DNA of 64,000 bases from Octopus vulgaris (taxonomy: Eukaryota), in assembly GCA_951406725.2 (NCBI GenBank), contig OX597814.1, forward strand, positions 57,536,001-57,600,000. The letters run 5' to 3'. Positions 22,976 to 54,194 of the stretch are shown here, one piece after another. How positions within the stretch are numbered: the stretch's first letter is position 1; the number at the start of each line of letters is the position of its first letter. The translations under genes and the position numbers were made by a program. The notes under the pieces are model-generated. The model was given only the letters and a program-made list of their open reading frames with translations, ran no database searches and was not told the origin of the DNA.

Positions 22976-23040
<65 letters not shown>

Positions 23041-27294: not shown

Positions 27295-27334
27295 ACCAAA
27301 CTAGTTTCATCAATATTTTTTGTTTATCAATGGT
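27295..27334 (-). ncRNA. Minimal hammerhead motif with U3-A8 core
   Basis: Minus strand: ACCA-TTGATAA-ACAA aaaata TTGAT-GAAA-CTAG-TT-TGGT. Confidence 0.6.
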
Positions 27335-28189
27335 AAAAGTTTAAAAACATCTTTAAAAGTTTCAATGTTGACATATGAAAATATTTCAATGTTGATAGAT
27401 TAACATGTTCAAAACAAAAGGTGTAAGTTTGAATGTTCATAGCAGTCAATAAAATTAAAACTGTATATCAATTTGTTTGAATGTACAAAGTTCATGGTGG
27501 TCGACAAGTCATACTGAAAAAAATACAATGTGAAATGAAAACATTCAAAATTGTATATATATATGTATGTATTAGTACAAGTTTTTAGTCACATGAACCT
27601 GCATGAATGGGAATGCTATCTCAGTCATATTATTCACAAATCTCTGAAACTTTTTTCATTAAAAGACACCGTATCATTTTCTTAATGACCAACTTGGATT
27701 TTGGAAAGAATTTAAAAGCATATAAAAAATACATAACTATAACTATCTCTTATGATAAAAGGCAGATTTTCTCTGCCTGTTCCCATGTTCCTTTTTAATA
27801 CAATTCTACAATATAGAATTTCTTCAATTGGAATTTACCTATGATTTTTCGAAGTAGATTCGATTGGGTCATGGCATATAAAGTTTTTTCAATTTGACCC
27901 CCAATTAAGCAAAAATTCGAGAAAACTCAATATTTTACGATTTGCCTCTCTCATTTCAAGTGGTTTACTCCTGCTATTGCCACCACACTTTCTCCTACTT
28001 TCTCTTTGCAAGTGTGAAACTATTAAAGTGAAAGTATTATAAAACAGGGATGAGCCATTAATAGTGGTCATCCTTTTTGCTAGAGGAAGATCCGCTATGG
28101 TCTTATATGCTACACCACTGGTTTTCAATTCATATTAATCAAATTAATATTCAATTTTTCACCCTCATTATGTGTGTGTGTGTGTGTGT

Positions 28190-28740
28190 ATTAGCAATTC
28201 GTTTAAAATTGCATCAATGACACTTGAACTTGAATAGGTGGTTTCTAATAAATGGGGATAAATTAAAAAGGTTTGTTGTTATTATTATTACTGTTTGACT
28301 ATTGTAATCACGTTTGTTGGTTCCTCGTCAGGGAAACGTTGTTGTGTTGCATTTGTTAAATAATTGTAAACCGTAACCCCCCGCTTTCGGAGAAGGGGCT
28401 TTGGTTATTGTTTAAAAATTGAATTGTGTCCCTGTTTGGGGAAATTGACAATATATTCACCGTCTTTACGGAAGCATTTTTGTTAAAATGCCTTCGATAG
28501 AAGAAAGTCCAAAAATGAATTTCACTGCAGCCGTACACTTCTATACAAGATGGAGGACAAGATCCAATTGATCGAAATTGCAAGAGACGGGCCTACAATT
28601 CCAGTCTGTTATATATTTTGAGTATTGTTATCACTAGAGATATTAAGATATAACTTTGTATTTTGTATTATATGTGTAGATGTATATATATAGATGTACA
28701 TGTAATATGTACACATATATATACACATATATACATGCAT
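28190..28740 (+). mobile_element. Internally deleted copy of the 3850-5477 Helitron interior
   Basis: Matches ~4245-4310, ~4545-4811 and ~5234-5438 in order. Confidence 0.85.
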
Positions 28741-28989
28741 AATATATCTACCCATACACACACACACATACATAGGGGCAGGTGTGGCTGTCTGGTAACA
28801 AACTACGTTCCAAACACATGGTCCTGGGTTCAGTCCCACTGTGTGGTGACTTGGCATATGTCTTCTGCTGTAGCTTCAGACCAACAAAAGCCTTCTCAGT
28901 GGATTTTGTACATATATACAGGCATACATACATATATATATATACATGCATACGTACATATTCGGCATAAACACTCTACCACTACAACT

Positions 28990-30660
28990 AATAACTGTTG
29001 GGAACACTTTCAAACCTGCCTTACATTCGAACGGGAATCTCAAAAACATTGTCCCCTTCAGCGCCTAGCTCAATTGCTCTATCCTGACATGGAGGGTATC
29101 AGCAATGAAATCTATAACAAAAGAATCATTGACGTTGAAGACAGAATTGCTAAACTGGGTGAAAATGAATTGTCGCGGTATGGCCTGCCACAAGCATTCA
29201 GGTCAGGGTCAAATAGCCTTCCCACTGCTGTCATTCGTGAAACAACCTACGACACTCAAGCGCTTTCAAAGTACATTGTTGAAAATGAGCCTAAATTACT
29301 TCCGGACCAGCTTCAGGCCTACAGAACTATTCTTAACAGTGTACGCCAACGCGAGGGACGAATATTCTTCCTCGGTACTCCTGGAGGGACAGGAAAAACA
29401 TTTATTACAAAGCTTCTCCTTGCAGAAGTTAGGTAGCATCAGGATATTGCAGTAGCTGTAGCCTCCTCTGGCATTGCAGCTACTTTGTTACCCGGTGGCA
29501 GGACAGCACACTCAACTTTTAAACTCCCTCTCAATTTAGCAGCATCCGAAATGTCTTCATGCAACATCAACAAAAGCTCAGATCAGGGACAAGTACTTAA
29601 AATGTGTTATGTAATTGTTTGGGATGAGTGCGCTATGGCTCACAAGGGAGCTTTAGAAGCATTAGATAGAGCCCTGAAGGACATCCGAGACTGTAAGGCT
29701 CCAATGGGAGGTGTAACGCTTCTGTTGTCAGGTGATTTCAGGCAAACTCTTCCTGTCATTCCGAAAGGCACTAGAGCTGATGAAGTTCAAGCATGCCTAA
29801 AGTCCTCTACCCTGTGGCATCATGTTACAATCTTTAGTCTCACCACTAACATGAGAGCTCAGCTACACGGCGACAAAATGTCCACAAAGTTTGCACAGGG
29901 CATTTTGACACTTGGTGAAGGCAAGATGCCTCTCCATGCTGCAGGACAAATGGAAGTGTGGTCATTTTCCTCTGTTGTTAATTCTGTAGATAACCTCAAA
30001 AAGTCTTTCCCAACTTCACACAAAACTACCAAAATCACAATTGGCTGTGTGAAAGAGCAATATTAGCTCCAAAAAACGTCGCTGTTAACAAAATTAATCA
30101 ACAGCTAATGCATTCTCTTCCCGGCACTATACACACTTACAAGTCTGTTGATACAATTCCAGATATAAATGAAGTTGTGAACTATCCTCCTGAATTTCTC
30201 AATTCACTGGAGCCTCCTCGACTACCTCCACACATATTACCACTTAAAGTTGGAACTCCTGTAATGCTACTCCGCAATCTGGAACCACCAAGACTTTGCA
30301 ATGGAACACGACTGGTGATAAAGAAAATGATATTACACGTTATCGAGGCGATCATTCTTTCTGGATGTGGAAAAGGTGATGACGTCTTTATTTCACGATT
30401 TCCTCTTACTTCATCAGGAGCAGAAATTCCATTTACATTCAGAAGACTGCAATTCCCCCTTCGTGTCAGCTTTGCCATGTCCATTAACAAATCTCAGGGT
30501 CAAACCCTCTCTGTAGCTGGTCTTCTCTTGGAAGAGCTCTGCTTCTCGCATAGGCAACTGTATGTTGGCTGCTCAAGAGTAGGAACCAAAAAAAAAAAAA
30601 CCTTTTTGTATATGCTCCACAAGGAAAAACAAGGAACATTGTTTACAACGAGGTGTTATA
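28990..30660 (+). pseudogene. Helitron Pif1-like SF1B helicase (disrupted)
   Basis: GTPGGTGKT, ASSGIAATLLPGGRTAHSTF, IVWDE, GDFRQTLPV, LCNGTRL and FAMSINKSQGQT; in-frame TAG at 29434 and frameshifts near 30000 and 30590. Confidence 0.93.
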
Positions 30661-30747
30661 ATCTCAACAGCCAGGAGGTATATACATGATCCCCTTTTTT
30701 TTAACAAACTTCATGTACTTCCATGTATTTATATTAATATACATATA

Positions 30748-30786
<39 letters not shown>

Positions 30787-30827
30787 CCATATATATAACA
30801 GAAAAGTCTAATTCTTCTATTGAAAGT

Positions 30828-30856
30828 AACCGGGCAACGCCGGGTATCTCTGCTAG
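30828..30856 (+). mobile_element. Helitron 3' terminus
   Basis: CCGG-GCAACG-CCGG hairpin, then CTAG (30853-30856) followed by T; similar to the 5450-5477 terminus. Confidence 0.85.
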
Positions 30857-30867
30857 TAATTGATATG

Positions 30868-31945
30868 TACGAGGATCGACTGAAAAGTTCTTCGACTGAC
30901 GAAGATACTGTTATGGAATGCGACCAAATGAGTTTCATTTTTTAATATAGTTCCTCTTGTTCTCCACATACCTCTTCCATCGGTGAAAGTGCTTCGATCC
31001 CATTAGTGAAGAAGCTTTCATCCTGTTGATCAAAAAGTTATCAACAGCAGATATGACATCATCATCACTACCATACTGGTTCTCAAGTGTTCTTTTCATG
31101 TTGGGGAACAGATGATAATGAGATGGGATCAAATCAAGAGAATAGGGCAGCTGATCAACCAGTTCTAAGCCACAGTCACGTGCAGCAGCCATTGAAAGCA
31201 ACAAAGCAAAGTAAGCAAGGCGGCGAGCTGGCAGAATCGTTAGCACGCCGGGCAAAATGCTAAGCGGCATTTCGTCTGCCGTTACGTTCTGAGTTCAAAT
31301 TCCGCCGAGGTCGACTTTGCCTTTCATCCTTTCGGGGTCGATAAATTAAGTACCAGTTACGCAATGGGGTCGATGTAATCGACTTAATCCGTTTGTCTGT
31401 CCTTGTTTGTCCCCTTTGTGTTTAGCCCCTTGTGGGTAGTAAAAAAATAGGTATTTCGTCTGCCGCAACGTTCTGAGTTCAAATTCCGCCGAGGTCGACT
31501 CTGCCTTTCATCCTTTCGGGGTCGATTAAATAAGTACGAGTTACGCACTGGGGTCGATATAATCGACTTAATCCGTTTGTCTGTCCTTGTTTGTCCTCTC
31601 TATGTTTAGCCCCTTGTGGGCAATTAATAAATGAGAAAACAAGGACTTGTGTGCAGAAGCATAATTTTTATGATCCAAGATCCCTTTTGTCAGTTTTTCT
31701 GGGCGTTTGGTTTTGATAGTCCTTTGTAACTGCCTCAACAAGTTGGCTAGTACTCTCTATTCACGTTGTGGCCGTTTTGAAGATAGTTAACAAGCACAAT
31801 GCTTTTTGCATCCCCAAAATGGAAGCCACCACATTCCCTGCAGATGAAACGACCTCAGCTTTCTTTGGAGCAGGTGAGGAGGCGTGTTTCCACTGCATAG
31901 ATTGTCTCCTTGTCTCTGGCTCAATACGTTTACTTGAAAACCATG
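30868..31945 (-). pseudogene. Decayed mariner transposon interrupted by a SINE
   Basis: TIR end TACGAGG at 30868; minus-strand WKHASSPAPKK, GNVVAS and LPYSLDLIPSHYHLFPNMK (a YSPDLAPSD relic). Confidence 0.85.
31219..31632 (+). mobile_element. Young tRNA-derived SINE plus tandem partial duplicate (31451-31632)
   Basis: A box TGGCAGAATCGTTAG, B box GAGTTCAAATTCC, and central GTCGACTTTGCCTTTCATCCTTTCGGGGTCGATAAA..AGTACC (Meta-domain-like). Confidence 0.85.
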
Positions 31946-32315
31946 CTTAACCGCTGTTGTTATGACTAAAACAAATAAAACAAATACTTCACTGCACTCA
32001 TGTAAGAATAGACTAACATACACATACGTATAAATAGTGGTATATACATATGTACGCATACTTCCATATAGATATACATATCAGGTGAAAACATAAGAAA
32101 TACTTGTCACGTTCTTACAGGCCGACTTTCATTCTTTTCATCGAATTAAACAATCCTCTGTTTCTCTTTCTATATATGCATGTATGTATGTATGTATGTA
32201 TGTATGTATGTATGTATGTATGTATGTATGTATGTATGTATGTATGTATGTATTTATGTATGTATGTATGTATGTATGTATTTATGTAGTTTGCATATAC
32301 TTATATGTAGATACG

Positions 32316-32396
<81 letters not shown>

Positions 32397-32780
32397 GTCT
32401 CAGTCTATTTGTTTGATTGTCTGTCTGTCAGTCACTCTCTCTCTTCTCTTTCTTTCTCTATATACATACATAAACATATGACATATATACATATACATAG
32501 ATACATACATATAGACACACAAATATCGATAATGCGATAAAAAACTTTGCTTATACATACATACATATGCACACACACATACATACACGCGCATCCATAA
32601 ACATATGAGTAACTATGTATATATCTGTGTATTAATGTATGAATATATGATTGGTCGTATGTGCTTATAAAAACTAGTATATATCGTAAATATCCAACAA
32701 TGGTTCACCTATCTTTTAAAGAAAACAAAAGCTGCAAATGTATGTATGTATGTATGTATGTATGTATGTATGTATGTATG

Positions 32781-32814
<34 letters not shown>

Positions 32815-33571
32815 TGTATGTATGTATGTATGTATGTACGTACGTGCGTATATATAGATATATATATATATATATATACATAACAAAAGTAACCAGAAAA
32901 ATCAATCTACGCGATAGGACAGACAATAGAATTAGGTTTTTATTGAATTGAAACAAATTCATGTTGATGATTGTTAAATATAAAATAAAAATAAAACTTT
33001 AAAAAATTATGTACAACCAATACATTGCATTTGCATACAATCATTCGGAATGGTTTTATACATATTTAGTTATTTGTGAAGCAATTTGATCGAAAAAATT
33101 TGTTATGGACACAAATGATTGCATTAAATGGATTGGTTTGTTCATGTTGTTTAGTCCCATATCTGCTCTGGGACTAAATTTTTCATTAAAGCGGGGTTTC
33201 TTGTGTTATCCCCACTATCTTATATTCAGACGCAGTGTAAGTGGTATCGCGTTTTCGAACGTGTCCATCACACATTTAAGAGTGTGATAAGTGATTTTAA
33301 GGCTATTCGGTTGCTATATTACAGTATATAGTTATTGCGTAGAGCAGAGGTAAAGAACAGATTTTGTTCTAGGGGTTAATTTCGAGAGCATCAGAAAATT
33401 TGTGAGAACGAATATTAGTCGCAAAAAAAAAATAAAATAAAAATAAAAGCGAGAATACTTTATTCTACAAAACGATGATTTTTGGTGTCGGATAGTAGTG
33501 GATGTTACCGGCCAGAATCTTGCATATAAATACAAGGCTGTGAAAGATTTTAGAACATTTATAAATAGAAG

Positions 33572-33619
33572 GTTTTACAAATGTTTCCGGGATATTTTAT
33601 ATATCCCTTCATCGGAGAC
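33572..33619 (-). ncRNA. Degenerate hammerhead motif
   Basis: Minus strand: GTCT-CCGATGA-A-GGGATAT ataaa ATATCCC-G-GAAA-CATTTG-TA-AAAC, with U4>C and a weak stem I. Confidence 0.55.
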
Positions 33620-34014
33620 AGTGTGAGAAGATGGTTAAGCAATAGTTATTTAGGCAGAATAGTATACAGATAAGATTCTAATACCTTGTGAGTGAGTTCC
33701 AATAGTATTAAAAATTGGTCATTCCAAGTATAGAGTTTGTACACAGTGTTATTAAATCGAGGGTTTTATTTAAAGTGACTTAAAAGTTGGGAATGTAATC
33801 TCATATCGAAAACAGGAAGAGAGGAATCTTTCACAGCCTTGAATTTTTATCTCATTCTGAAAAACTTTTTTATATATACATATGGTGATATATGACTTAC
33901 GTTGGGCACCTCATTTGCATAATCACCGAATCTGGTGCTTAACTATAGTTTGTCCACAGCACTCACTCAACATTACCTGTACCTTTGGGTCTTATTGCCA
34001 CCATTACCTATCAT

Positions 34015-34086
<72 letters not shown>

Positions 34087-34246
34087 TAAAGATATAATTA
34101 TAGTTAAAGGCTGCTGGAAATGACCATAATCAATGTTAGAAATTGGTGTCAAATACCTACAATTCATTCTACAATTTGTTCTTTATATTCAGCCACAGGT
34201 ACAAACGTGAGGAAATGAACAAGAAAATAAAAAAAATATTGGATAA

Positions 34247-34303
34247 TTCTATACCTCGAGATTTCACGCTCTACAAAAAATTGCTTTGGGATCTTCAGTA
34301 GAA
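34247..34303 (-). ncRNA. Type I hammerhead motif (left arm)
   Basis: Minus strand: TTCTA-CTGAAGA-TCCC...GCGT-GAAA-TCTCGAGG-TA-TAGAA. Confidence 0.65.
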
Positions 34304-34626
34304 TAAACCATTAATATATAAACGAGAAATATACGTGCCCACTGAAAAATTCGCCCGCATATACCAATGTACACATACATTTTCCGCGTATAAATTTCAT
34401 CCTCCAGCTCATCTCGACCATGTGGATAATGCCAGGAATCATATAGAGTAATTGCAGTCTCGCATTGAGATATTCTGACTAGAGAACTGCAAAATTATTT
34501 ATATCCACATAGTCGAGATGGGCTGGAAGATGAAATGTATACGCGGAAAATGTATGTGTACATTGGTATCTGCGGGTGAATTTACCAGTGGGTACGTACA
34601 TTTCTCGTTTATATATTAATGGTTTA

Positions 34627-34683
34627 TTCTACTGAAGATCGCAAATCAATTTTTTGAGGAGTGTGAAATCTCGAGATTTAGAA
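34627..34683 (+). ncRNA. Type I hammerhead motif (right arm)
   Basis: TTCTA-CTGAAGA-TCGC...GTGT-GAAA-TCTCGAGA-TT-TAGAA, with palindromic helix III and a weak stem II. Confidence 0.65.
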
Positions 34684-36042
34684 TTATCCAAATTATTTTT
34701 TTGTATTTTCTTGTTCATTCCCTCATTTTCGTACTTGTGGTTGAATATATAGAACAAATTGTAGAGTGAATTGTAGGTATTTGACACCAATTTCTAGCAT
34801 TGGTGATGGTCATTCCCAGTAGCCCTTAACTATAATTATCTTCATAATTATAAACGTAAAAAAAGTTAACGTTACCTATACGGGCCACTGCTAGGCCACT
34901 GATATAATCATTTTATAACTATGTCCTTAACTTACACACACATACACACACACATACACACACACACACACACTCATACACACATATATACACACATACA
35001 TACGTTCATACAAACATACATACGTACATGCACAAGCACATGCATTTTTTGTGGTAGTCGAAACTGATTAGTATGATGATCTAAAGATCAATTTAAGGGG
35101 ATTAAGAGAAGTGACTGAAATCGATATCATTATTTCTGCCTTGATTGAGATACATTTTAAACAAGGATCTCTAACTGTATGTTGTGAAGGATATGCAGAT
35201 TCGTTGATTTGATTGAATAATGCCATAAGAAATCGTACTTTTTTGATATCGGCGTAAAGGCGAAAACTTCCATCGCATCAAAATCGCTGTATAGACTGCT
35301 GTGGTTTTTCGAGCCAGAACCTACTTAACAATCTCTGATGTGCTCAGTCCAGTCACAGAGTGGCACAGTGTAGATTTCTAAAACATTCCAAAGATTTTTC
35401 ATTTGAGTTTCCTGTAATGAGGATAAACACACAATGACAAACATATCTATGACGTACTCACACACATGCCTACAACGTAATCACAAACAAATTCGTGTTG
35501 TAAAAAGACGTGTAGATCCGTTTTAAGAGCGCATGTATATTTACACATGCACTTACATATATGTACACACTGACTCAGTCATATATTCACAAATCCTATG
35601 AATTGTCTTGACTAAAACAACAGCACTCTGTCCCTTTGCTAGTGACTGGCTTGGATTCTACATACAAAAAGCGTAAACAAACTTTAAAGAATAACACTGC
35701 ACACTGGTATACATATGTTTACACGAAAAACATAGCCGGTCTTAACTGATATGATAAAAGAAGTGACAAAAAAAAACAACATGTTTATAACAATACACAC
35801 AAAATAATCATTGATGTACACACTAACATATTCACAAGTACCGAAAAAGAAAAAAACCCAGCCCGAGAACTAAAACAAAAAACAAAACAAAAACAAAACA
35901 AAAAATGAGAAACAAACGAAAATGAATCGTCACGTTCTTACTTTTTGACTTTTCTTATATTCTGCTAGATTTCAAGTCTCCCTTTCTTACTCATCGCCTC
36001 ACCGCACTCATTTTTTGTGTGTGTACGTGTATGTGTGCGTGC

Positions 36043-36085
<43 letters not shown>

Positions 36086-36088
36086 CAT

Positions 36089-36130
<42 letters not shown>

Positions 36131-36412
36131 ATATACACATATAAATATACACATACAAAATACATATATATATATATACATATATTACAATTCAGGGACG
36201 ATACAACCTGTAGCCAACGAATAAGTAAATAGTCTCTCTTTATTACAAAATACAGATCCCCTTTGAACGCATCTACAACAAATGACATATCTACCACGAC
36301 CTTTGAATAACACACACGCAAATATTAAAAATGATACATTCAAAAGAGATACCCAAGAAATCATTAATTGTTTACTTTTGTGGATTCCAGGTCGTTGTGA
36401 ATTCTTGGCAGA

Positions 36413-36487
36413 GAAGAAGAAGAAGAAGAAGAAGAAGAAGAAGAAGAAGAAGAAGAAGAAGAAGAAGAAGAAGAAGAAGAAGAAGAA
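36413..36487. repeat. (AAG)n microsatellite
   Basis: Direct read. Confidence 0.95.
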
Positions 36488-36544
36488 AATAATGCAGGGG
36501 TGCTATGATAGTAGTAGGATGGGAAATGGCCAAGTGCCCTGAAA

Positions 36545-37720
36545 GTGCCTTGTGGATGGTAGTAGTGATTGAATTCTTGAGATATCTGTTTTGAATGTTA
36601 GTTTATAATATTTGCGTAGGTGTTATTTTAAACAGCATTGTGTGTTTGGAGGATTAAGTTCATTCTGTGGCCCTTTTTTTTAGCAGGGGAATGTTTTGAA
36701 TGATGGTGTCGAAGGCTTCATTGTTAAGAGGGTTGTGTGTGGTAGGGCTTTTGGTTGTAAATCCTACTTTAATTTGGGATGTCTGAGTTCGTGGATGTTG
36801 AGTTGTAGGGCATGTTGAAAGCATATGTCAGTTAGTGAAGGTGGGTAGTTCCTGGTGATGGGTGTATCCTTTAGTTTATGTAGTCGTGTGTCCCTGGTGC
36901 TTGCATTAGAATCTATAGTACATATCCTTTTTGCTAGGTTGAAGGGGATATTCATTCTGGTATGTCTGGAGTGCCATGTGTTGAACGGTAGATATTGCTT
37001 GGAGTCTGTGGGCTTATAGTATATATTTGTTTCTATTACGTTGTTAGATTTCTTAATGAGGATGTCGAGGAAGGGAAGTTGTTGATGGCTATATTCCATC
37101 GTGAATTGAATGTTTACGTCAAGTCCATTTATAAGTGCTTGAAATTCTTTAAGTCTTTCTATACTTTCATGCCAAAGAAAGAAACAGTCATCCAGGTATC
37201 TCTTCCAGTTATTTTCTATGTAGAGGGAGAATGGGCTGCCGTATTTTTCTGGAACCTTACGATAAAGACTAATTTCTAGATATCCCATAACTAGGTTAGC
37301 AAAGGAGGGGGCCATTCTCCTACCCATCGCAGTCCTCGATTTTTGTCGATAGAAGTTGTCTTTGAAGACGTAGCAGTTATTCTCCAAGATAAATTTTAGC
37401 CCTTCTATCACGAATTCCTTTTTGATGCGATGTGGGAGTTCGTTGGCGTAATTCTCTAACAAAAATTGAATTGCCTCTATTCATAGGTTGTGGGGGATAT
37501 TGGAATTGAGGTTGACTACATCGAAGGATACTAGTAGAGTGTTTTTGTTTATTGTTTCAGGAAGGTGATCGAGCAAATCCAAGTCGTCCCTTATATAGCT
37601 TTTGACATGCTTGAGGAATGGTTTTAAGAGGATATCTAAAAAGTTATTGACGCGGTGGGTTTCGCATACGGGACCTGCTAGTATAGGTCTCAATTTGAGG
37701 TCATTAGGAGGGAGTAGGGA
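36545..37720 (-). pseudogene. Penelope-like (Neptune-type) RT fragment
   Basis: RPILAGP, SFDVVNL, AMGRRMAPSFANLVM, RYLDDCF, LPFLDI and YYKPTD; clearly homologous to the 51071-52885 ORF; disrupted near 37480. Confidence 0.9.
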
Positions 37721-37746
37721 CTTTGATTATTATGTCTGTGGCTATC

Positions 37747-37808
<62 letters not shown>

Positions 37809-39347: not shown

Positions 39348-39441
<94 letters not shown>

Positions 39442-39605: not shown

Positions 39606-39645
<40 letters not shown>

Positions 39646-44548: not shown

Positions 44549-46238
44549 TCATCAAATGTGTAATAATGATGATTAGTTTATGTTGTCATTAATAGTAATG
44601 AAAATTATGACTCAACGTCTCGAATTTTTGTTTTTGTGTTATATAAGTTTGAAATGCAGTATTACTCTACAGTATAATTCAACTTTTCGCAAGATTGCAC
44701 CTTAATTATATATCTAAATGTAATGTGGATTAATTACCATTTAACAATATGATCACTAATTTGATAAGATGTTTAGGTATACAGAAAACGCACATGTGGC
44801 ATGTGATACTATGTAGAAGCCTGCTTATAAATCTATCTGCATTCTGTAACTTTTGCATAATATGGGTTAATGCAATGGCTTGGTCTCATTCCTTTCTTAA
44901 ACTATCCACCCCTATCATCACCTTCAATATTAGCGTGGGGAAAGGAAAAGCAGAAAATTTAAGAAAAATTTTAATTAGGAAATGATAATCTAGTCATATT
45001 CAACAGCACGAAAATGCAATTTCGATTCATATTTAGGAAACTATATTGCGCTACGCCTCTCTCTCTTTCTCTTTCTCTCTCTCTCTTACTTGCTGAGCAA
45101 CGAAATCAAAACACTAAACGTGCTCCAAATGCTAGGCTGCATAATGTCTAATAGTCATTAGACTAGCTGTGAAGAAGAGAGAAGTTACTAGAAAATTGTC
45201 GGAAGCCGCCGAGAAAGTAAGCCATTACATCTGTGGTGCATTAAGAACGAGCATTGAGGGTAGTAGACACATTTGGCCAAGAAATGCAGCATCTGACTTG
45301 TGCTTTTGTGCAAGAGTTTTGTTGCCTACATCGATAGGTGGCCCCGAATAGTTCTTGTGCCGTAGTGCAAGGGGCCAAAACACCCTCAGTTTTGTTTCTC
45401 CGCCAGATGAAACATCGACTTCTGCATTCTGAGACGTAATGCAGTAGGACTTTCTGTGCACAAGTGTTTACAGCCCCATCAAAAATATGTTGCCGAAACT
45501 CCAACAGATGCGGTTTCATTTTTTAAGACCCGAGAAAACATCAACTCGAGCCAGTTACTGATTCTGTTAAACAAATGACAAGACAAGCTTTGTAATACTG
45601 CTCATGTATATGTGCCGGTAATGTTACTACACATACAAACATCAATGACCACTTCCAAACGAACTGATTGAATTTGATTCCCTACCGACGCTTTACTACA
45701 ACTACCACACTCAAACGCACTCTTTTTTCTCTACTTCCCTACTACAACGGCCTATGACCCTTTCAACCATTTGTAAAAATACTCCATCAATTCAGATATC
45801 TACTCACCTTGAATCCCTTCGCTCAATCTGCCGTGGGTGACATTCCAGCATCCATCCTAAATACTTTGCTAAATCTTTCATTTCAAGAACAGTCATATTC
45901 AGGGATTAACGCCGTGTCCACGTTATTTCTGCACACACCAACTCACAACGTTGGACTTAACACGGACAACATCAATTTTATTAGTGTGTGAAGACACGCA
46001 AATGTCATCACCACAGTGTTCTCTTCAAACTTATAAAAATGATTTAAATGACCACTATAAGACAACATAAATTCATATAAGTTGTCATTTAAAAAGTTTA
46101 TTATAATATATATATATATATACGCATGGCGTTCGATCATATAATAATATAAATATATATATATATAAATTGATATATAAATATATGCATATATACATAC
46201 GTATATGTACATACCTACAGATATATGTATATATACAT

Positions 46239-47190
46239 GCATATATGGGTACAGGACATCAAAAAAACGTTGAACACAATGAGAAACGAAAACATAAAAG
46301 CAAAAACATAGAAAACGAAATTATTTTCGAACAACGAAAAAAACAAACAGAGAAACGAGACATGCAACATAAAGAATATTCCCCTTCATCAGTGTCCCTG
46401 TTTCTTCTACTCCGCGTTTCGAAGACAAGGACAATACGCGACTTCGTTGAAATAGTCCTTCCCGCAAAGCAAATTAAATGAAATTTGAGATATTTTGCGG
46501 AGGGTGAAAGTGGTAACAAAAACAGGACAGTGAAAACAAGACAGTAAAAACAAACGGTGAGGGCTGTTAAGTCAAGACGATAGAGAAATTGTTATGAACG
46601 CTAGGAAGACGAGCTTATGAGAGGAAACAGTTATAAGCACGTGTTGTCTTTAGCAAGGAAATGGGCAGAAAGATAGATTCCCTTTCGTCACGTGTCATCG
46701 ACGAGAGGATCAAGGCGGAAGAGTGAGAGAGAGGGAACGGTGAAGAGAAGAGAAGAATAAGGAAGGGTGGGAGAGAAAACCAGAACGATGAAGAACGAGA
46801 GAGGGAGAGAGATAGACAGAGAAGAGATAGTCTCTACTATCTCTTCTCTGCCTATATATCTCCCTCTCTTGTTCTTCATCCTTTCTTATTTTCACTCCCA
46901 CCCTTCGCTATTCAGCGAAAGGTTGAATTAATGCAATTTAAGAAATTGAATTTGTCTGGACATTTACTCATATGATTTAGGTAAACTCATATGCCATAGG
47001 GAAAACATGAACCTGAAGTCGTGAGATTGATATTTCGTTTGAATAACAAGAAGTCAGATTCGTCTTCTTCCCACGCAAACTTAATTCGACTTCTGAATTT
47101 CAATCTATAAATTTTGCCGATGTATGAATCTCCTACTTTCCTCGAAATCTTTTCAGCAACGTTTTTTGATGTCCTGTACACATATATGCA
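46239..47190. mobile_element. ~950-bp element with ~35-bp terminal inverted repeats inside TA-rich repeat
   Basis: Left GCATATATGGGTACAGGACATCAAAAAAACGTTG; right end is the reverse complement CAACGTTTTTTGATGTCCTGTACACATATATGC. The left ~330 bp is related to 26260-26580. Confidence 0.65.
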
Positions 47191-47266
47191 TATATATTAT
47201 ATATATATCATCATCATTGTCAACACCATCTCCTCTGCTTACTACTACTAGTATCGACAAACATCT

Positions 47267-47896
47267 TTGTCTTGGAATCGACCTTCTCAATCATTACCAC
47301 TGTCAACATCTCTTCTACCTAATACTACTACTACAACTACTACTACTAATGCTATCTCAAGGAATTTACCTCCTACAGGTCACAAAGGTCGCCAAAACTT
47401 CAACAAACTATCATCTACACCTTTCACAACTCACACACACACACGCACCTACACACCCACTCGAAACCCCATCATTTGCCGATATTCTCTTCACCATAGA
47501 CTGTGCACTGATAGAGACTGCAAATTCACCCATTTACCTGGAACAAAACGCTCTATCCCCACAAACTACAACAGCAACCACCATAATACAACACCACCAC
47601 AACCACCAATATCTCAAACAAGGAATCCCCAAATCTGCCGCTATTCCCAGCGAGACAGATTGTGTTTGCACAGGGATTGTCCCTTTACCCATCTCCCGGG
47701 GACTCGTCGGACATTTAAAGATAACCACTCACATAAAAATAGCCGCGGCCACAGTCACCTGCGGTTCCCTAGCCAGGAAACCACCTCTTCTTCCTCTTTT
47801 TTAGCTATAATGAATCTAGCAAAAGAACTGGAAAAAAACATCCGAGCTATCACCCACCACCATCCACCACTATTACCCCACTGCACATGCCATTAA
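47267..47896 (+). CDS. LINE ORF1 with two CCCH zinc fingers (no upstream ATG; probably truncated or mutated)
   Basis: CRYSLHHRLCTDRDCKFTH and CRYSQRDRLCLHRDCPFTH (C-x8-C-x4-C-x3-H), each followed by LPGT[K/R]R; overlaps the ORF2 start by 10 nt; frame opens after TAG at 47249. Confidence 0.7.
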   Translation: MSWNRPSQSLPLSTSLLPNTTTTTTTTNAISRNLPPTGHKGRQNFNKLSSTPFTTHTHTRTYTPTRNPIICRYSLHHRLCTDRDCKFTHLPGTKRSIPTNYNSNHHNTTPPQPPISQTRNPQICRYSQRDRLCLHRDCPFTHLPGTRRTFKDNHSHKNSRGHSHLRFPSQETTSSSSFLAIMNLAKELEKNIRAITHHHPPLLPHCTCH

Positions 47897-49077
47897 AAAG
47901 CAATCAAATAAACAAATCACCAAAACAATTAAAACCATCCACTCTCGCCTCAACATTTCTGCTTAATGCCCAAGGCATCAGCCCTTCCACCAATACACAA
48001 AAATGGAAGATAAGATTCCTGGAGGACTGGGTCGAGGCCCATCCAAACCACATCCCTTTCTTCGTCCTCACTGAAACCCATCTTAGTGACCTCCACTTGG
48101 AAGCCGAGGTGAAAGTTAAAAATTTCAAAACCATTCGTGCTGATCGTGCTGGCAGAAGAAAGGGTGGGACTGCCATTTATGTCCATGATTCATTCTCAAC
48201 AGAAGCCATGAACATATTTTCCAATGGATACTGCGAAGCAGTCGCTGTATTCAGTCAAACCAACAATTTAACAGTAGTTGGGCTCTACAGACCACCCCAA
48301 ACGCCCCTACCATGCTTCAAGGAATGCCTCAACAGCATAAAGTGTTTCATTCAGCAGTGTCAACCTGACAACATTTTAATGATGGGAGACTTCAACCTTC
48401 CCGGGGTTGACTGGTCTACAAACAGTCTGCCGCCAGGTTCTTCTCTCTCAACCCCTGACAGGGAGGCAGTGGAATCGCTTCTTGACTTCATGGATGACTT
48501 CTTCTTGTCCCAACTGGTACTCGAACCAACGAGATGTCACAAAAACGTCTTAGACTTAATTTTCAGCAATCACACTGATACTATCCACAATATTGCAGTG
48601 GAGAAAACCCTACTCTCCGACCATGACATGGTTCTCTATGATCTGAGATTTCACTGGCCAAAATGCAAAACAAATGTCATCCCTCCTGTTCATCCATTTG
48701 ACACTATGGATTTCCACAATGCAAACTGGGAAGCGATCAATAATGATCTTGCACAAGTCGATTGGTCCTTCACGCACACATACACACCCACTAACATCAA
48801 AAAGTCCTGGCAGTCACTTGTAGACACCATCACGGACATATGTGCAAGACACACCCCATTAAGATCTGCAAACAAATCTAAGTGTCGAATCCCTAGAAAT
48901 AGAAAATCTCTAATAAGGAAAATTAAAAGAATCAACAAAAAGATCAACGTGCTGAAATACTGTCAACAACAACACACCAACCTGACTGCCATCTCGTCGC
49001 TAGAGATTAAAAAACATAAACTCCAAAACAACATGATGTCTATCATCAATAGTCAGCGAAGAGCTGAAGAGGCCTAG
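47887..49077 (+). CDS. LINE ORF2 N-half: APE-type endonuclease
   Basis: LNAQG, LTETHL, GGTAIYV, YRPP, MGDFN, LDLIFSN and SDH motifs; ends at a premature TAG in frame with the RT. Confidence 0.92.
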   Translation: MPLKSNQINKSPKQLKPSTLASTFLLNAQGISPSTNTQKWKIRFLEDWVEAHPNHIPFFVLTETHLSDLHLEAEVKVKNFKTIRADRAGRRKGGTAIYVHDSFSTEAMNIFSNGYCEAVAVFSQTNNLTVVGLYRPPQTPLPCFKECLNSIKCFIQQCQPDNILMMGDFNLPGVDWSTNSLPPGSSLSTPDREAVESLLDFMDDFFLSQLVLEPTRCHKNVLDLIFSNHTDTIHNIAVEKTLLSDHDMVLYDLRFHWPKCKTNVIPPVHPFDTMDFHNANWEAINNDLAQVDWSFTHTYTPTNIKKSWQSLVDTITDICARHTPLRSANKSKCRIPRNRKSLIRKIKRINKKINVLKYCQQQHTNLTAISSLEIKKHKLQNNMMSIINSQRRAEEA

Positions 49078-50904
49078 GCCATTAAGAAGATCAAACTCAA
49101 TCCCAAAGTGTTCTTTTCATTTGCAAAAAAACACAGAGTCACTGGTTCTACTGTTGGCCCTCTGATTGATGAAAATGGTACTCTTCAAGACAATGCCAAA
49201 ACCATGGGAGAGATATTGCAGAAACAATATTGCTCTGTTTTCAGCAATCCTTATATGACTGATCTGGGCTGTATCAGTGATGTTACTCCCCAATACACTT
49301 TATCGGACATAACATTTGGCGCTCCTGATGTCTTAGCAGCAATAAAGGAAATGAAGCATAATTCAGCAGTAGGTCCCGATAGGTTCCCTGCTTGTGTCTT
49401 GAAGATGTGTCAAAACCAACTTGCACCCCCTCTAGCCAATCTGTGGCGGAACTCACTGGATGCTGGATATATACCAGAAGACCTTCTATCCCAGTCTGTT
49501 GTCCCAGTTTTCAAAAAAGGAAACAAATCGCTTGCCGTGAATTACCGTCCAATCTCACTCACCTCTCATATCATCAAGGTATTTGAGAGGGTGCTGAGAT
49601 CGCGTATGACTCACTTCCTTGAGAGTCATAATATGCTGAACCCCAACCAGCATGGATTCCGTAATGGGAGAGATTGCCTGACGCAGCTACTGCATCATTT
49701 TGATGACATTTTGAGAGCCTTGGGAGAAGGTTCCAACACTGATGTCATCTACCTTGATTTCAGCAAGACCTTTGACAGGGTTGATCATAAGATCCTTCTG
49801 AGAAAGCTGTCCAATATTGGTGTCACTGGAAAGCTGCTGCAGTGGATCAAGTGCTTCCTGTCTAACAGAACCCAACATGTTGTAGTCGAAGGAGTCAAAT
49901 CCAGCCCAGCCAAAGTCAGCAGTGGTGTCCCACAAGGCACTGTGTTGGGCCCACTTCTCTTCATCATCTACATAAATGATATTACTGACACCATCAAACA
50001 CAGTAACATCAGAACCTTCGCTGATGATTCCAAGCTCCAGAAGGTCATCAATGGCATGGATGACCGAATAAACCTTCAGTCAGACCTACTGGCTGTTGTC
50101 CAATGGGCGGAAAAGAATAACATGTTGCTAAATGAAGACAAATTCGAACTGATCCACTTTGGAAGGGAGGACGCTCTGAAACTCCCATACTCTCTTCCTT
50201 CTGGAGAAATTCTCATGGCATCCAACAACATCAGAGACCTGGGAGTAACAGTGGACAACAACATAAGCTGGGCTACACATATAAGCAGCAAAGTTGACAT
50301 GGCCCGCAGAATGTGTTCCTGGATTCTCAGAACCTCCCAGTCGAGAGATTCTCACGCTATTATCTTTCTCTTCTCCACTTTTGCCCGACCCCACCTTGAA
50401 TACTGCTGTCCACTGTGGTCTCCCTACACAAAACAAAATATTATGAGAATTGAAGCTCCCCAAAGGTCAATCACAAAAAAGATAGATGGCATGTCAGACC
50501 TTGACTACTGGGGTAGACTAGAGAAGCTGAAATTGTATTCACTCCAACGACGCCGTGAACGCTACATTATCTGTATGATGTGGAAAATATTCCATCAGCA
50601 CTGTCCGAATGATGTTGGCATCACCTTCAAAATGTATCCAAGGCTTGGACCACGTGCCATCCGTCCACAACAAAAATCTAAATCGCATCACATAACGACA
50701 ATACGGCACAACTATTTCACCTCAATTGGACCCGCTCTCTTCAACATTACTGCAGGACACGTCAAAAAAGAAACTGACCACACAAAATTCAAGAAGTCTT
50801 TGGACAAATTCCTTCAAACAGTACCGGACAAACCACCCACACCCGGATATGTCTCCGCAAACAATAACTCTCTGCTCGAATGGGCCTTGGTGCCCAAATC
50901 CTGA
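49078..50904 (+). CDS. LINE ORF2 C-half: reverse transcriptase (CR1 clade)
   Basis: YRPISLTS, QHGF, YLDFSKTFD, GVPQGTVLGP, FADD, RDLGV, RPHLEYC and LYSLQRRRER; continuous in frame with 47887-49074. Confidence 0.95.
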   Translation, partial: AIKKIKLNPKVFFSFAKKHRVTGSTVGPLIDENGTLQDNAKTMGEILQKQYCSVFSNPYMTDLGCISDVTPQYTLSDITFGAPDVLAAIKEMKHNSAVGPDRFPACVLKMCQNQLAPPLANLWRNSLDAGYIPEDLLSQSVVPVFKKGNKSLAVNYRPISLTSHIIKVFERVLRSRMTHFLESHNMLNPNQHGFRNGRDCLTQLLHHFDDILRALGEGSNTDVIYLDFSKTFDRVDHKILLRKLSNIGVTGKLLQWIKCFLSNRTQHVVVEGVKSSPAKVSSGVPQGTVLGPLLFIIYINDITDTIKHSNIRTFADDSKLQKVINGMDDRINLQSDLLAVVQWAEKNNMLLNEDKFELIHFGREDALKLPYSLPSGEILMASNNIRDLGVTVDNNISWATHISSKVDMARRMCSWILRTSQSRDSHAIIFLFSTFARPHLEYCCPLWSPYTKQNIMRIEAPQRSITKKIDGMSDLDYWGRLEKLKLYSLQRRRERYIICMMWKIFHQHCPNDVGITFKMYPRLGPRAIRPQQKSKSHHITTIRHNYFTSIGPALFNITAGHVKKETDHTKFKKSLDKFLQTVPDKPPTPGYVSANNNSLLEWALVPKS

Positions 50905-50988
50905 ACTCAAAGACTTCGCCAGGTGGTGCTATTAAGTTAGACATGGCCTGGGCCAATACTGGCCAAAACCTTTCTAAGTTATTCTAAG

Positions 50989-51047
<59 letters not shown>

Positions 51048-51070
51048 CCTTTATTTATCTACTTGTGAAG

Positions 51071-52885
51071 TCATTCACTAGTGAATTTCATCACACACAA
51101 CATGGAGCAAATTTCGTCTTTACATTGGTAGAAGGGGAATATATAGAATTTGGGGTTTAAGTCTTTAGCACATGAGTCTAAGTGGTCACTCAGTGGAATT
51201 TGTCGGTATTCCGGGAGATTTATTTGTTCTTTATGCACCGTTACTCGTTTACGTAACGAGAGACTCGTTTGTCCAACATAATTATGTTGGCAACCAGCGC
51301 ATGTGAGAACGTAGATAAGGTTCTCGGAGGAACAGGAGAAGTTAGTCTTGATTTTAAACTTCGTACCTTGTTTGAAGGTAAATTCAGAGCCTTCAAGTAG
51401 AAAGGGGCAGGTACCACAGTTTGAGCGTGCACATTTTTTTACTGTTGGGGGTGGATGTGGTGTGTGAAGTTTGGCATTTGTCAAGAGTTTTTTTAAAGAT
51501 TTGTGTTGCCTTTTGCATTTGAGGATTTTGTGTGTATTTATAATGTTTTTCATTTTTGGGTCTGTTGACAGTAGACTGAGGTTTTGTATGATTGTGGTGT
51601 ATGCTTCGATATTTTTGGGGTTGTGGGTGGAAATGTATGGAAGTATTTTGAAGTTGTGTGTGGTGTTAGGTTGGGTGGTTTTCAGTGTAGTGTTGTCTAG
51701 TTCTTTGGCGCGTTTTATTCCATACTCTATAAGGGTGGAGGGATATTGACGTTGTAATAGTGTTTTTTTGAGGTCTTGAAGGCGTATTTCTCGTGTTTTT
51801 GGATCCGAGACAATGGTGCATACCCTTTTAGCTAAATTGAAAGGGATATTTGTCTTGGTGTGTTTTGGGTGGCATGAACTAAAGAGGAGGTATTGTTGTG
51901 AGTCTGTAGGTTTGTGGTAGATGTCTGTTATGATTTGGTTCTTAGGTGTTTTTATAATTAGGAGATCAAGGAATGGGAGATGATGTTTGCTTAATTCCAT
52001 AGTGAATTGGATGTTGGGATGTATGTTGTTTAGTATGGTTTGGAATTCCAGGAGTTTTTCATAAGGTTCTTTCCATATGATGAAACAATCATCTAAATAC
52101 CTTTTCCAGTTTTCCATTAGGTAGGTGTCGAAAACATGTCCAAATTTCTGGCTTGATATTTCATAGAGTGACAGTTCGAAGTAACCCATTATGAGGTTCG
52201 CAAGGACTGGTGCAGCCTTGGTACCCATCGCAATGCCACATTTTTGACGGTAGTGTGTGTCGTTGAAGAGAAAAAAATTGTTTGTCAGAATGAACTTAAG
52301 AGATTCTGTAATAAAAGACTTGTTAATGCGGTCAGGGAATGTCTCTGGGTGTTTTTCTAGCCAGAAGTCAATTGCCTCTATACCATACTCATGTGGAATG
52401 TTGGTGTAGAGGTTGATGACATCAAAGGATACCAGGAGTGCCTCCTCGTTAACTGTTTTCGGGAGGTGTTTGAGCATGTCCAGATCATCCCTAATGAAAC
52501 TTTTGATGTGGGTAAGGAAAGGTTTCAAAAGGATGTCTAGGAAGTTACTCAGGCGGTGTGTTTCACAGGAGGTACCAGCCACGATGGGCCTTAGTTTTAG
52601 GTCCTCCGGTGCTTTGATGTTGATGTGGATGTCAGTGGAGAGTTTGCAGGCTTCGGTGATGTATTTGTTTTTATGGATTTTAGGAAGGCCATAAAAAAGG
52701 CTGGGCTTGCATTTGAAAATGGTGATATAATCCCTTTCTTTTTCTGTGAGTCCCTGACCGTGTTGGCGTATGAGTGTGGTGAGGTTTCTGATTGTTTTTT
52801 GCTGTTTGTAGTTGTTAATAACCTCATAGAAAATGTTATTGTTAAGCATGGAGAACACTAGGTGTTTATAAAATTCCGTGTCCAT
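51071..52885 (-). CDS. Penelope-like element RT + GIY-YIG (Neptune-type), 5'-truncated and inverted
   Basis: FYGLPKIHK, RPIV, SFDVINLYTNIP, GIAMG, RYLDD, FLD, Cys linker CARSNCGTC and NLIYVLTC..C...YVGQT..R...H. The last ~14 aa are non-element sequence. Confidence 0.95.
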   Translation of the reverse strand: MDTEFYKHLVFSMLNNNIFYEVINNYKQQKTIRNLTTLIRQHGQGLTEKERDYITIFKCKPSLFYGLPKIHKNKYITEACKLSTDIHINIKAPEDLKLRPIVAGTSCETHRLSNFLDILLKPFLTHIKSFIRDDLDMLKHLPKTVNEEALLVSFDVINLYTNIPHEYGIEAIDFWLEKHPETFPDRINKSFITESLKFILTNNFFLFNDTHYRQKCGIAMGTKAAPVLANLIMGYFELSLYEISSQKFGHVFDTYLMENWKRYLDDCFIIWKEPYEKLLEFQTILNNIHPNIQFTMELSKHHLPFLDLLIIKTPKNQIITDIYHKPTDSQQYLLFSSCHPKHTKTNIPFNLAKRVCTIVSDPKTREIRLQDLKKTLLQRQYPSTLIEYGIKRAKELDNTTLKTTQPNTTHNFKILPYISTHNPKNIEAYTTIIQNLSLLSTDPKMKNIINTHKILKCKRQHKSLKKLLTNAKLHTPHPPPTVKKCARSNCGTCPFLLEGSEFTFKQGTKFKIKTNFSCSSENLIYVLTCAGCQHNYVGQTSLSLRKRVTVHKEQINLPEYRQIPLSDHLDSCAKDLNPKFYIFPFYQCKDEICSMLCVMKFTSE

Positions 52886-53126
52886 AAGGACACGGAATTT
52901 CTAAATGTTTATAAAAAACATTTCAGTACGGAATTAGCCGAAACAGACCGATCAGTATAGGTAATTCTCGACTGGTATTTTCGGGCGATTATAATCAGTA
53001 CATATGTATACAATTATGTGCTTTAATTATAGCATTAGAGATTTTTAGCACTTATTTCTAGCAACGTAAGTATTGTAACACCCTAGTCATATGGCACTCC
53101 CGCATTCTTCTTATCCTCCTCCTCCT

Positions 53127-54047
53127 CCACTTAGACTCATGTGCTAAAGACTTAAACCCCAAATTCTATATATTCCCCTTCTACCAATGTAAAGACGGGA
53201 TCACCACACAGGAGAGAATTAACAAGGAGAATCTCTTTATTGAAAAATTCCAAACACAACTTAATATGCAAACTCCTCGTTGATCAAACTTCCTTTCTCT
53301 ACCTCACTCTTCATGGATGGACTAACACAAATATATAAAGATACCATGCATTCATCACTTCAAGCTAAAACTTATATTCTTTAAATATCATTTTTACTAT
53401 TGTTGTTATTACTATCATTTTTATTATAAATGATATGACAATTTGAAATGCAATTGTCTATGCAGATTTATATTATTAGAAAATAATATAAATAAAGTGT
53501 TAAAATCTGAAAGTTAAGTTAACAAGCAATTATATAAAAAAGATAATGCAAATGAAGCTAAAATGATAGTTTTATAATTTGGGTTTTATTGAAGAACTCA
53601 AAAGAGTTGTCTCCCCTTACTCACAACACAGGAACTGAAGAACCAGGACCACAATTACTACTACTTCCTGTCCTGCAAACATGCTGAATTTAACAACACA
53701 ACACAACACATGCTCTTAATCCCTTTGGATCTTAACACCTCAAGGTAATTTTTTCGTAAACAACCATAAAACTCAAGATACACAACGAACTCACAATGTA
53801 TCGGAGAACTTATTTTTTAATTTTTGTACATTTTTATCATTATTCTTTTACAAAAAACAATGCAATTTTCTTTTTTTCCCCTTTCTAATTTTTAAAAAAA
53901 CTTCTTAAAACATAAATATTCTTGACAAGTCATACAATGACGAAAACCGGTTGAATAAATATATATTTTTATATATTTTATCAATTTCTCATTTTATTAA
54001 AATTTTCTTTCATTTGAGCATTCTGCATTTTTAAAAAAATTTTTCCT

Positions 54048-54050
<3 letters not shown>
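53127..54050 (+). mobile_element. True 3' end of the same Penelope-like element (GIY-YIG C-terminus plus 3' UTR)
   Basis: The first 71 nt are the reverse complement of 51115-51185. It continues ...YQCKDGITTQERINKENLFIEKFQTQLNMQTPR* (stop 53281-53283) and ends at (TA)n. Confidence 0.9.
53917..53957 (+). ncRNA. Minimal hammerhead motif with U3-A8 core in the PLE 3' UTR
   Basis: TATTC-TTGACAA-GTCA tacaa TGAC-GAAA-ACCGG-TT-GAATA. Confidence 0.72.
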
Positions 54051-54111
<61 letters not shown>

Positions 54112-54158
54112 AAAAACAGGCAAGGTAGAAAATGCTAAAAAAATTTTAAAAAACATTT

Positions 54159-54194
54159 CAGTACTGGTTTCATTCATTGAGACCTTTTCAACTG
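54159..54194 (-). ncRNA. Degenerate hammerhead motif with U3-A8 core
   Basis: Minus strand: CAG-TTGAAAA-GGTC tcaat GAAT-GAAA-CCAG-TA-CTG. Confidence 0.55.

What the first reader, a model, noticed from the sequence alone, without database searches (positions are those of the whole stretch)
27295..54194. Three independent hammerheads with a compensatory U3-A8 catalytic core
Seen: cores TTGATAA (27324-27330, -), TTGACAA (53922-53928, +) and TTGAAAA (54185-54191, -) instead of CTGANGA. Each has stem I, GAAA and an ACTAGT/ACCGGT-type palindrome. Known: C3 pairs with G8 in the active fold, and the U3-A8 double swap preserves that pair but is rare in nature. Inference: the double change in three different sequences is covariation rather than decay, so a whole PLE lineage here may use U3-A8 ribozymes that CUGANGA-based screens miss.
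Basis: partly seen in the sequence, partly recalled or inferred. Interest (0 to 1): 0.78.

Follow-up and report, generated by a model that had tools for sequence, protein, structure and literature searches.

The report
Jumping-gene ribozymes with swapped core pair
The three motifs are small hammerhead-ribozyme motifs at the ends of three related Penelope-like jumping-gene families that carry a U-A instead of the usual C-G core pair, a variant already described in blood flukes but likely present here in over ten thousand copies, so standard searches would miss a large share of this genome's hammerheads.

Summary
The three cores are where stated. Each is a minimal type I hammerhead in the terminal repeat (pLTR) of a Neptune-type Penelope-like element (PLE). 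U3-A8 is the family state: 31/35, 32/33 and 31/35 fetched copies. One genome-wide pattern gave 9,119 hits (control 78), of which 141 C3-G8 and 152 U3·G8. This is not decay. The three are not independent origins either: their proteins fall in one clade.

The variant is known: natural U3-A8 (Perreault 2011) and ~1,300 U3-A8 PLE hammerheads in Schistosoma (Cervera 2014). This scan noted it before in two other genomes.

Not found in the papers I could search: (1) U3-A8 is roughly 35-40% of this genome's pattern-matched motifs (rough estimate); (2) the youngest family (site 2, 603 copies) has lost one base at the cleavage site relative to its sister families; (3) a ~358-bp retrozyme-like family has amplified U3-A8, U3·G8 and C3-G8 subfamilies plus a few C3·A8 copies, with young C3-G8 nested inside U3-A8.

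Cleavage is untested; one published mutational scan found only the G-C swap rescued this pair.

The parts
27294..27335 (-). Site 1: minimal type I hammerhead motif, U3-A8 core at 27324-27330, palindrome ACTAGT, U17; family 1
27216..27550 (-). Family 1 pLTR remnant (solo, about 92% identical to other copies); in other copies ORF2 ends 650-740 bp upstream of the motif
53917..53957 (+). Site 2: hammerhead motif, U3-A8 core at 53922-53928, palindrome AACCGGTT; one base shorter at the cleavage site than sister families; family 2 (young, 603 exact-pattern copies)
53127..54051 (+). Family 2 element, 3' part: end of ORF2, 3' UTR and pLTR, ending at a (TA)n run
51115..52891 (-). Family 2 element, inverted 5'-truncated ORF2 piece (RT, Cys linker, GIY-YIG-type end); 51115-51185 is an inverted repeat of 53127-53197
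54159..54194 (-). Site 3: minimal type I hammerhead motif, U3-A8 core at 54185-54191, A17; decayed copy of family 3 (729 exact-pattern copies)
54113..54413 (-). Family 3 pLTR remnant (about 92% identical to other copies); in other copies ORF2 ends 530-750 bp upstream of the motif
22763..22808 (+). Fourth hammerhead, not in the finding: U3·G8 core (22769-22775), 6-bp stem I, palindrome ACTATAGT, C17, in a copy of the ~358-bp retrozyme-like family (remnant about 22562-23054)

Best explanation
The three motifs are minimal type I hammerhead motifs in the terminal repeats of three related Neptune-type Penelope-like retrotransposon families whose copies carry U3-A8, likely inherited from one ancestral swap, and they would likely cut the element's RNA only weakly and as dimers. 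Shown: in a full-length family 2 copy (L095) the motif lies in both 337-bp direct repeats, about 200 nt before ORF1 and 645 nt after ORF2. Inferred steps: read-through transcription of tandem or partial-tandem copies gives RNA with two motifs; the 6-8-nt palindromes pair between them to make helix III; U3 pairs with A8 in place of C3-G8, so residue 8 still offers its 2'-OH as general acid; cleavage, probably helped by the element's protein, trims or unit-sizes the RNA. Cleavage is probably useful over long times but not strictly needed for each jump.
For: Family state is U3-A8: 31/35, 32/33, 31/35 fetched copies; 100 of the first 100 of 603 and 95 of the first 100 of 729 pattern hits with positions 3 and 8 left free. 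Of 9,119 hits ending in GAAACCGGTH only 141 are C3-G8 and 152 U3·G8; most listed U3·G8 hits are single changes in U3-A8 families. Stems I and II differ in sequence between families but stay paired, and helix III stays palindromic, although the ORF2 proteins of these families match family 2's at only about 45-57%. All 8 U3-A8 rows of this genome lie in one 11-row clade (SH-aLRT 97; the other 3 rows have no known motif); the four nearest labelled outside relatives have C3-G8. Co-folding two copies gives an intermolecular duplex over the palindrome with stems I and II formed for site 2 and for family copies of 1 and 3. Literature: U3-A8 occurs in nature and was active in vitro (PMC3088659); PLE min-hammerheads cleave weakly as dimers (PMC4209133); an anole PLE hammerhead cleaves only with its protein (PMC11167929).
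Against: No cleavage evidence was obtained here. [quoted passage not shown] Family 2, the youngest and most uniform, lacks one base at the cleavage site compared with sisters at 95% and 88% protein identity. Family 1 has an extra U that pairs with A9 in the lowest-energy fold. In the dimer folds the duplex runs on over the GAAA, an inactive-looking register, and the window's own copies of sites 1 and 3 do not form the expected stems. Ribozyme-dead mutants did not impair anole PLE insertion in vitro. The protein tree is a quick search without bootstrap, with fragments joined by X and no named Neptune references.
Confidence: 0.68

Rival explanations
1. The U3-A8 motif is inherited and its fold is kept, but it no longer cuts to any useful degree; it serves as a dimerisation or protein-binding handle, so the core drifts.
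For: Low activity of non-G-C swaps in one mutational scan; insertion works without cleavage in vitro and no RNA ends were seen at the site in anole data; family 2 amplified to 603 copies after losing a base at the cleavage site; U3·G8 and C3·A8 retrozyme copies were also amplified.
Against: Across families UGA, A9, GAAA, U16.1 and H17 are kept and positions 3 and 8 are overwhelmingly a Watson-Crick pair, as selection on catalysis predicts; the young retrozyme branch appears to have returned to C3-G8; a one-base insertion in GAAA (U13a) is described as likely easy to accommodate.
Confidence: 0.22
2. Each family swapped C3-G8 to U3-A8 on its own, helped by AT-biased mutation in AT-rich pLTRs (three independent events, as the title of the finding says).
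For: U3-A8 arose repeatedly across PLEs (at least 6 changes on a tree of 31 labelled rows) and the pair changes state at least 7 times among 35 retrozyme copies, so repeated swaps are easy.
Against: Every sampled family of this clade in the genome is U3-A8 and none is C3-G8; one change on the stem explains all.
Confidence: 0.07
3. The three copies are decayed C3-G8 ribozymes or chance matches.
For: The window is 35% GC; CpG decay is common (8 of 34 family 3 copies have ACCAGT); the window copies of sites 1 and 3 are damaged.
Against: Family copies are U3-A8 with no C3-G8 among 103 fetched copies or among the first 100 hits of either family pattern.
Confidence: 0.03

Closest known systems
U3-A8 minimal hammerheads of Cercyon PLEs in Schistosoma mansoni (Cervera and De la Pena 2014, PMC4209133; results and discussion read, supplement file 2 searched)
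   Same: Type I minimal motif in pLTRs, U3-A8 core, palindromic helix III, many solo copies; about 1,300 U3-A8 hits against about 2,000 C3-G8 hits there.
   Different: Here roughly ten times more copies in many families, with 6-8-nt palindromes; kinship of these elements to Cercyon was not tested.
Natural hammerhead core variants (Perreault et al. 2011, PMC3088659; section on core variation read)
   Same: C3-G8 covarying to U3-A8 in nature; a one-base insertion in GAAA described.
   Different: There rare single examples; here the fixed state of a retrotransposon clade.
Neptune-clade PLEs (as described in Craig et al. 2021, PMC8557442; passages read)
   Same: RT, Cys-rich linker, C-terminal GIY-YIG-type domain, pLTRs, inverted 5'-truncated copy, (TA)n neighbours.
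   Different: Family 2 has a separate 380-codon upstream ORF; nearest labelled outside relatives keep C3-G8.
Non-LTR retrozymes of animals (Cervera and De la Pena 2020, PMC7229834; bioRxiv 10.64898/2026.07.22.740005; passages read)
   Same: The fourth motif (22769) belongs to 357-360-bp tandem repeats each holding one type I hammerhead.
   Different: Subfamilies here differ at the 3-8 pair (U-A, U·G, C·A, C-G). The 2026 preprint has no occurrence of U3-A8 or 'core'; circular RNA was not shown here.

Membership tests
Minimal type I hammerhead of PLEs | Core N3-UGAN-N8-A ... GAAA ... UH with a Watson-Crick 3-8 pair | tested here: met
   Families 1 and 3 and the sisters of family 2; family 2 itself has one extra A or no N17.
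Minimal type I hammerhead of PLEs | Closing stem I and stem II, kept by compensatory change between families | tested here: met
   by inspection of family representatives, no formal covariation statistic. The parser failed on 8 of 30 representatives (7 without a parse, 1 wrong site).
Minimal type I hammerhead of PLEs | Short palindromic helix III allowing a dimer | tested here: met
   ACTAGT, AACCGGTT, ACCGGT in the families; intermolecular duplex in co-folds.
Minimal type I hammerhead of PLEs | Location in the pLTR of an RT plus GIY-YIG element | tested here: met
   Both direct repeats of L095; 530-810 bp after ORF2 in families 1, 3 and A.
Minimal type I hammerhead of PLEs | Site-specific self-cleavage as a dimer | not testable with these tools
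   Only assembled contigs of runs guessed to be RNA were available.
Neptune clade of PLEs | Cys-rich linker between RT and C-terminal GIY-YIG domain | tested here: met
   CxxxxCxxC followed by a GIY-YIG-type stretch read in the protein; own Pfam scan found RVT_1 only; many close homologues carry PF01541, some named GIY-YIG nuclease.
Neptune clade of PLEs | RT phylogeny groups with named Neptune references | not tested
   No named reference elements were available; the tree holds unnamed relatives only.
Non-LTR retrozyme (for the 22769 family) | 150-450-bp tandem repeats with one type I hammerhead per unit and no RT of their own | tested here: met
   Periods 357-360 bp, units 96-99% alike in six loci; no tblastn hit to PLE proteins in L213-L224.
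Non-LTR retrozyme (for the 22769 family) | Accumulates as circular RNA | not testable with these tools
   Contigs cannot tell a circle from a tandem transcript or DNA.

The most novel reading that the evidence does not exclude
The catalytic 3-8 pair of the hammerhead is caught cycling in this genome: a U3-A8 PLE clade supplies about a third of all hammerhead motifs, and in a retrozyme family it likely mobilises, the pair walked U-A to U·G more than once and U-A to C·A to C-G, with the intermediates themselves copied many times. That would be a natural record of a ribozyme active site crossing its fitness valley by both routes, and would mean that wobble or mismatched cores (and family 2's one-base-short cleavage site) are good enough in vivo, probably because the element's protein chaperones the fold.
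Probability: 0.35. Interest if true: 0.65.

Novelty: new member of a known kind. Interest (0 to 1): 0.4.

Why it matters
Hammerhead censuses built on CUGANGA undercount: here roughly 12,000-13,000 U3-A8 motifs stand beside about 20,000 C3-G8 ones (extrapolated from hand counts of the first 100 hits of each pattern). The genome also offers matched natural pairs for an open question, whether PLE and retrozyme hammerheads must cleave for the element to move: family 2 versus its 95%-identical sister that keeps N17, and retrozyme subfamilies about 89-97% alike with U-A, U·G, C·A or C-G cores. The U3-A8 swap itself is not news.

Tried and rejected
Rfam scan: only microsatellite-driven miRNA-like noise, no hammerhead among 150 listed of 172. 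A strict descriptor on 1 Mb of evenly spaced stretches found just 18 motifs (7 C3-G8, 5 U3-A8; shuffles 0.1 and 0.7) and missed wobble stems such as the array in L100, so it is too small for a census. Sequencing runs: no RNA holder listed. Contigs of two studies stop near L093:1400, close to the predicted cut, but the tool skips 1401-1436 and one of the two contigs runs 33 letters further, so this says nothing on cleavage; no splice joint was seen at a suspected 5' intron. No similarity between the retrozyme unit and nine PLE loci beyond E 0.17, so which PLE mobilises it is unshown. L247 (C3-G8, short fragment) fell inside the wider clade on a long branch in a fast tree; I left it out of the final tree because only 41% of columns were filled, and it remains a possible counter-example to a pure U3-A8 clade. 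The G17 reading of site 2 was dropped once sister families showed U or A at 17 before the same stem I. The first tree attempt timed out. The tool for DNA around homologous proteins was closed, so the motifs of P0001-P0120 are unknown. Three papers most likely to bear on novelty were not held: Lunse et al. on PLE hammerhead variants, Przybilski and Hammann 2007 on the 3-8 pair, Hammann et al. 2012. Supplement file 1 of Cervera 2014 could not be searched.
Full report
Observation. The cores are at 27324-27330 (-), 53922-53928 (+) and 54185-54191 (-) as stated. Each has a closing stem I, a stem II region, GAAA and a short helix III region. A loose descriptor found 4 U3-A8 hits in the window against 0.25 expected from 60 shuffles; it found sites 1 and 3 but not site 2, which has GAAAA. 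The window lies at G000:C1:57536001-57600000 of an unnamed 2.8-Gb genome. From its size and microsatellite load I guess a cephalopod mollusc; that is untested.

What carries them. Each motif belongs to a dispersed repeat (1,109, 2,851 and 988 candidates at first look, 40 scored each). Site 2 is in the 3' end (53127-54051, +) of an element whose ORF2 lies inverted beside it (51115-52891, -), the usual PLE arrangement. A full-length copy (L095) has 337-bp direct repeats with the motif in both, a 380-codon ORF1 about 200 nt downstream of the 5' motif, and an ORF2 of about 750 codons with RT (RVT_1), a CxxxxCxxC linker and a GIY-YIG-type end. Sites 1 and 3 are solo pLTR remnants; in other copies a related ORF2 (35-54% identical to family 2's in the matched pieces) ends 530-750 bp upstream on the same strand. 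By the linker these are Neptune-type elements; no named reference was available to confirm the clade.

Covariation or decay. Among fetched copies U3-A8 is found in 31 of 35 (family 1), 32 of 33 (family 2) and 31 of 35 (family 3), and C3-G8 in none (these are the best-scoring copies, so biased to the window's sequence). Exact patterns with positions 3 and 8 free gave 603 hits for family 2 (first 100 all U3-A8) and 729 for family 3 (95 of the first 100), controls 0. A general pattern ending in GAAACCGGTH gave 9,119 hits, control 78; 141 are C3-G8 and 152 U3·G8; C3·A8 was not counted genome-wide (1 of the first 100). Most listed U3·G8 hits are single changes in U3-A8 families. Between families, stems I and II change sequence but stay paired. 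So U3-A8 is a fixed, inherited state.

How common. Other helix III types: GAAACWWGTH 6,931 hits, control 869, first 100 by hand 50 U-A, 30 C-G, 16 U·G, 4 C·A; GAAACGTH 24,182 hits, control 4,495, first 100 by hand 74 C-G, 13 U·G, 9 U-A, 4 C·A; GAAAACCGGTT with N7 not C, 459 hits, control 16, 97 of the first 100 U-A. Extrapolating gives roughly 12,000-13,000 U3-A8 and 20,000 C3-G8 motifs. This rests on lists from the first contigs, on patterns without stem checks, and leaves out other helix III types.

One origin here, many elsewhere. In a quick IQ-TREE tree of 41 proteins all 8 U3-A8 rows of this genome (families 1, 2, 3, two sisters of 2, families A and B) fall in one 11-row clade (SH-aLRT 97) with three homologues of unknown motif. 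The four nearest labelled outside relatives (L242, L243, L244, L319) are C3-G8. Six of 23 labelled foreign loci are U3-A8, at five separate places; fewest changes 6, shuffled mean 10.4, 3 of 500 shuffles as low. Of 83 foreign loci only those with a clear motif were labelled; near-duplicates and L247, a C3-G8 fragment that fell near this clade, were left out. So the three motifs are three families but likely one swap, and U3-A8 is a recurrent alternative across PLEs.

Irregularities. Sister families of site 2 (ORF2 about 95% and 88% identical) read GAAAACCGGTT, then U or A, then the same stem I; family 2 lacks that base in 32 of 33 or more fetched copies. Either N17 is gone, or the motif re-registers with an extra A in GAAA, akin to the U13a insertion. 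This family is nonetheless the youngest (98.6% mean identity). Family 1 has an extra U before G12 that pairs with A9 in the lowest-energy fold. Family 3's typical copy is a regular min-hammerhead with a GUA site.

A retrozyme-like family shows the pair changing. Most C3-G8 hits belong to 357-360-bp tandem repeats with a 6-bp stem I. A pattern for this group gave 1,083 hits, control 0; first 100 by hand 59 U-A, 26 U·G, 11 C-G, 3 C·A, 1 U·U. One subfamily is A8 in 22 of 22 listed copies; another is U3·G8 in 18 of 24 and never C3. Tandem units exist for U-A, U·G and C-G. In a tree of 35 copies with positions 3 and 8 masked, the state changes at least 7 times; three young C3-G8 loci and two C3·A8 loci (97/85) form a group (94/88, not starred) inside a U3-A8-dominated clade (100/100), and one clade of all C3-G8 rows is rejected (p-AU 7e-6). 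Caveats: loci were hand-picked to cover the states; long branches meet at the root; recombination is likely; and G8 sits in a CpG, so C·A and some U-A copies could be decay (8 of 34 family 3 copies show such decay elsewhere). The window holds a U3·G8 copy at 22769.

How it likely works. Established: C3 pairs with G8 and the 2'-OH of residue 8 is the general acid. Inferred: two motifs on a tandem transcript pair through their palindromes (duplex seen in co-folds, though extended over GAAA), U3-A8 stands in for C3-G8, and cleavage trims the RNA. For: conservation of all other core bases; U3-A8 active in vitro according to Perreault 2011. Against strong activity: only the G-C swap rescued in a pairwise scan; PLE min-hammerheads are weak; the anole PLE hammerhead needs its protein and is dispensable for insertion in vitro. 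No activity data were obtained here.

Comparison and novelty. U3-A8 in PLE hammerheads is in print: about 1,300 hits in Schistosoma mansoni (PMC4209133), with an S. mansoni U3-A8 motif beside a similar S. japonicum C3-G8 one in the supplement. Two earlier notes of this scan on other genomes reached the same filing. I found no paper on amplified U3·G8 or C3·A8 subfamilies or on this animal group's hammerheads in searches for U3-A8/C3-G8, U3G8/U3A8/C3G8, hammerhead with the guessed taxon and wobble/retrozyme/C3U, but the three most relevant papers were not held. Papers seen: PMC4209133 (first two of four parts, one supplement searched), PMC3088659 (one section and passages), PMC2920678 (first part), PMC8557442, PMC7229834, PMC11167929, PMC9901934, PMC6765202, PMC3884650, PMC2837043 and the 2026 preprint (passages only).

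Verdict. Real, inherited covariation in a known kind of element; new member of a known kind. Interest 0.4, carried mainly by the scale, the cleavage-site deletion in the most active family and the natural series of core states in the retrozymes.

Noticed in passing
window 34626-34685 (+) and 34245-34304 (-): Inverted pair of C3-G8 hammerhead-like motifs with a long stem II region and a 10-nt palindrome (ATCTCGAGAT), in an inverted repeat with about 90% identical arms; parent element not identified.
   Followed up: no
window 17024-17067 (-): C3-G8 hammerhead-like motif with an 8-nt near-palindrome; a related motif occurs in L130.
   Followed up: no
window 36797-37708 (-): PLE RT fragment of the same clade, 85% identical to family A (L202) and grouping with family 3; no motif found beside it.
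   Followed up: partly
window 52908-53132 and 54386-54610: 225-bp perfect inverted duplication: flanking DNA appears copied into the inversion junction of the family 2 insertion, suggesting a template switch during integration.
   Followed up: no
window 12799-13257 (+); 28654-30689 (+); 47773-50904 (+): A GIY-YIG-like fragment without the Neptune-type match; a broken PIF1-like helicase (Helitron-type, recalled from motifs); an endonuclease plus RT non-LTR element (RVT_1) with one stop between the domains.
   Followed up: no
L100:3324-3572, run X9: The deepest contig over the retrozyme (depth 223) in a run guessed to be RNA has C3·A8 on a background closest to the U3-A8 subfamily (22 of 27 listed differences shared with L334); three or four of its private changes are T>C or A>G, which could be allele, subfamily or A-to-I editing.
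   Followed up: partly
L343, L353 (G000:C1:15211934, 60072618): A second family with GAAAACCGGTT directly followed by stem I and an apparent extra C before U3; another irregular U3-A8 motif.
   Followed up: no
L095:1247-2380 and L093, L096: Family 2 has a 380-codon upstream ORF with an internal 19-residue duplication, followed by a C/A-rich stretch before ORF2; whether they are one frameshifted ORF is unresolved.
   Followed up: partly
L319, L320, L321; P0043, P0048, P0062, P0067, P0084, P0096: PLE RT-endonuclease genes sit in records labelled as bacterial genomes or symbionts, likely host DNA in the assemblies.
   Followed up: no
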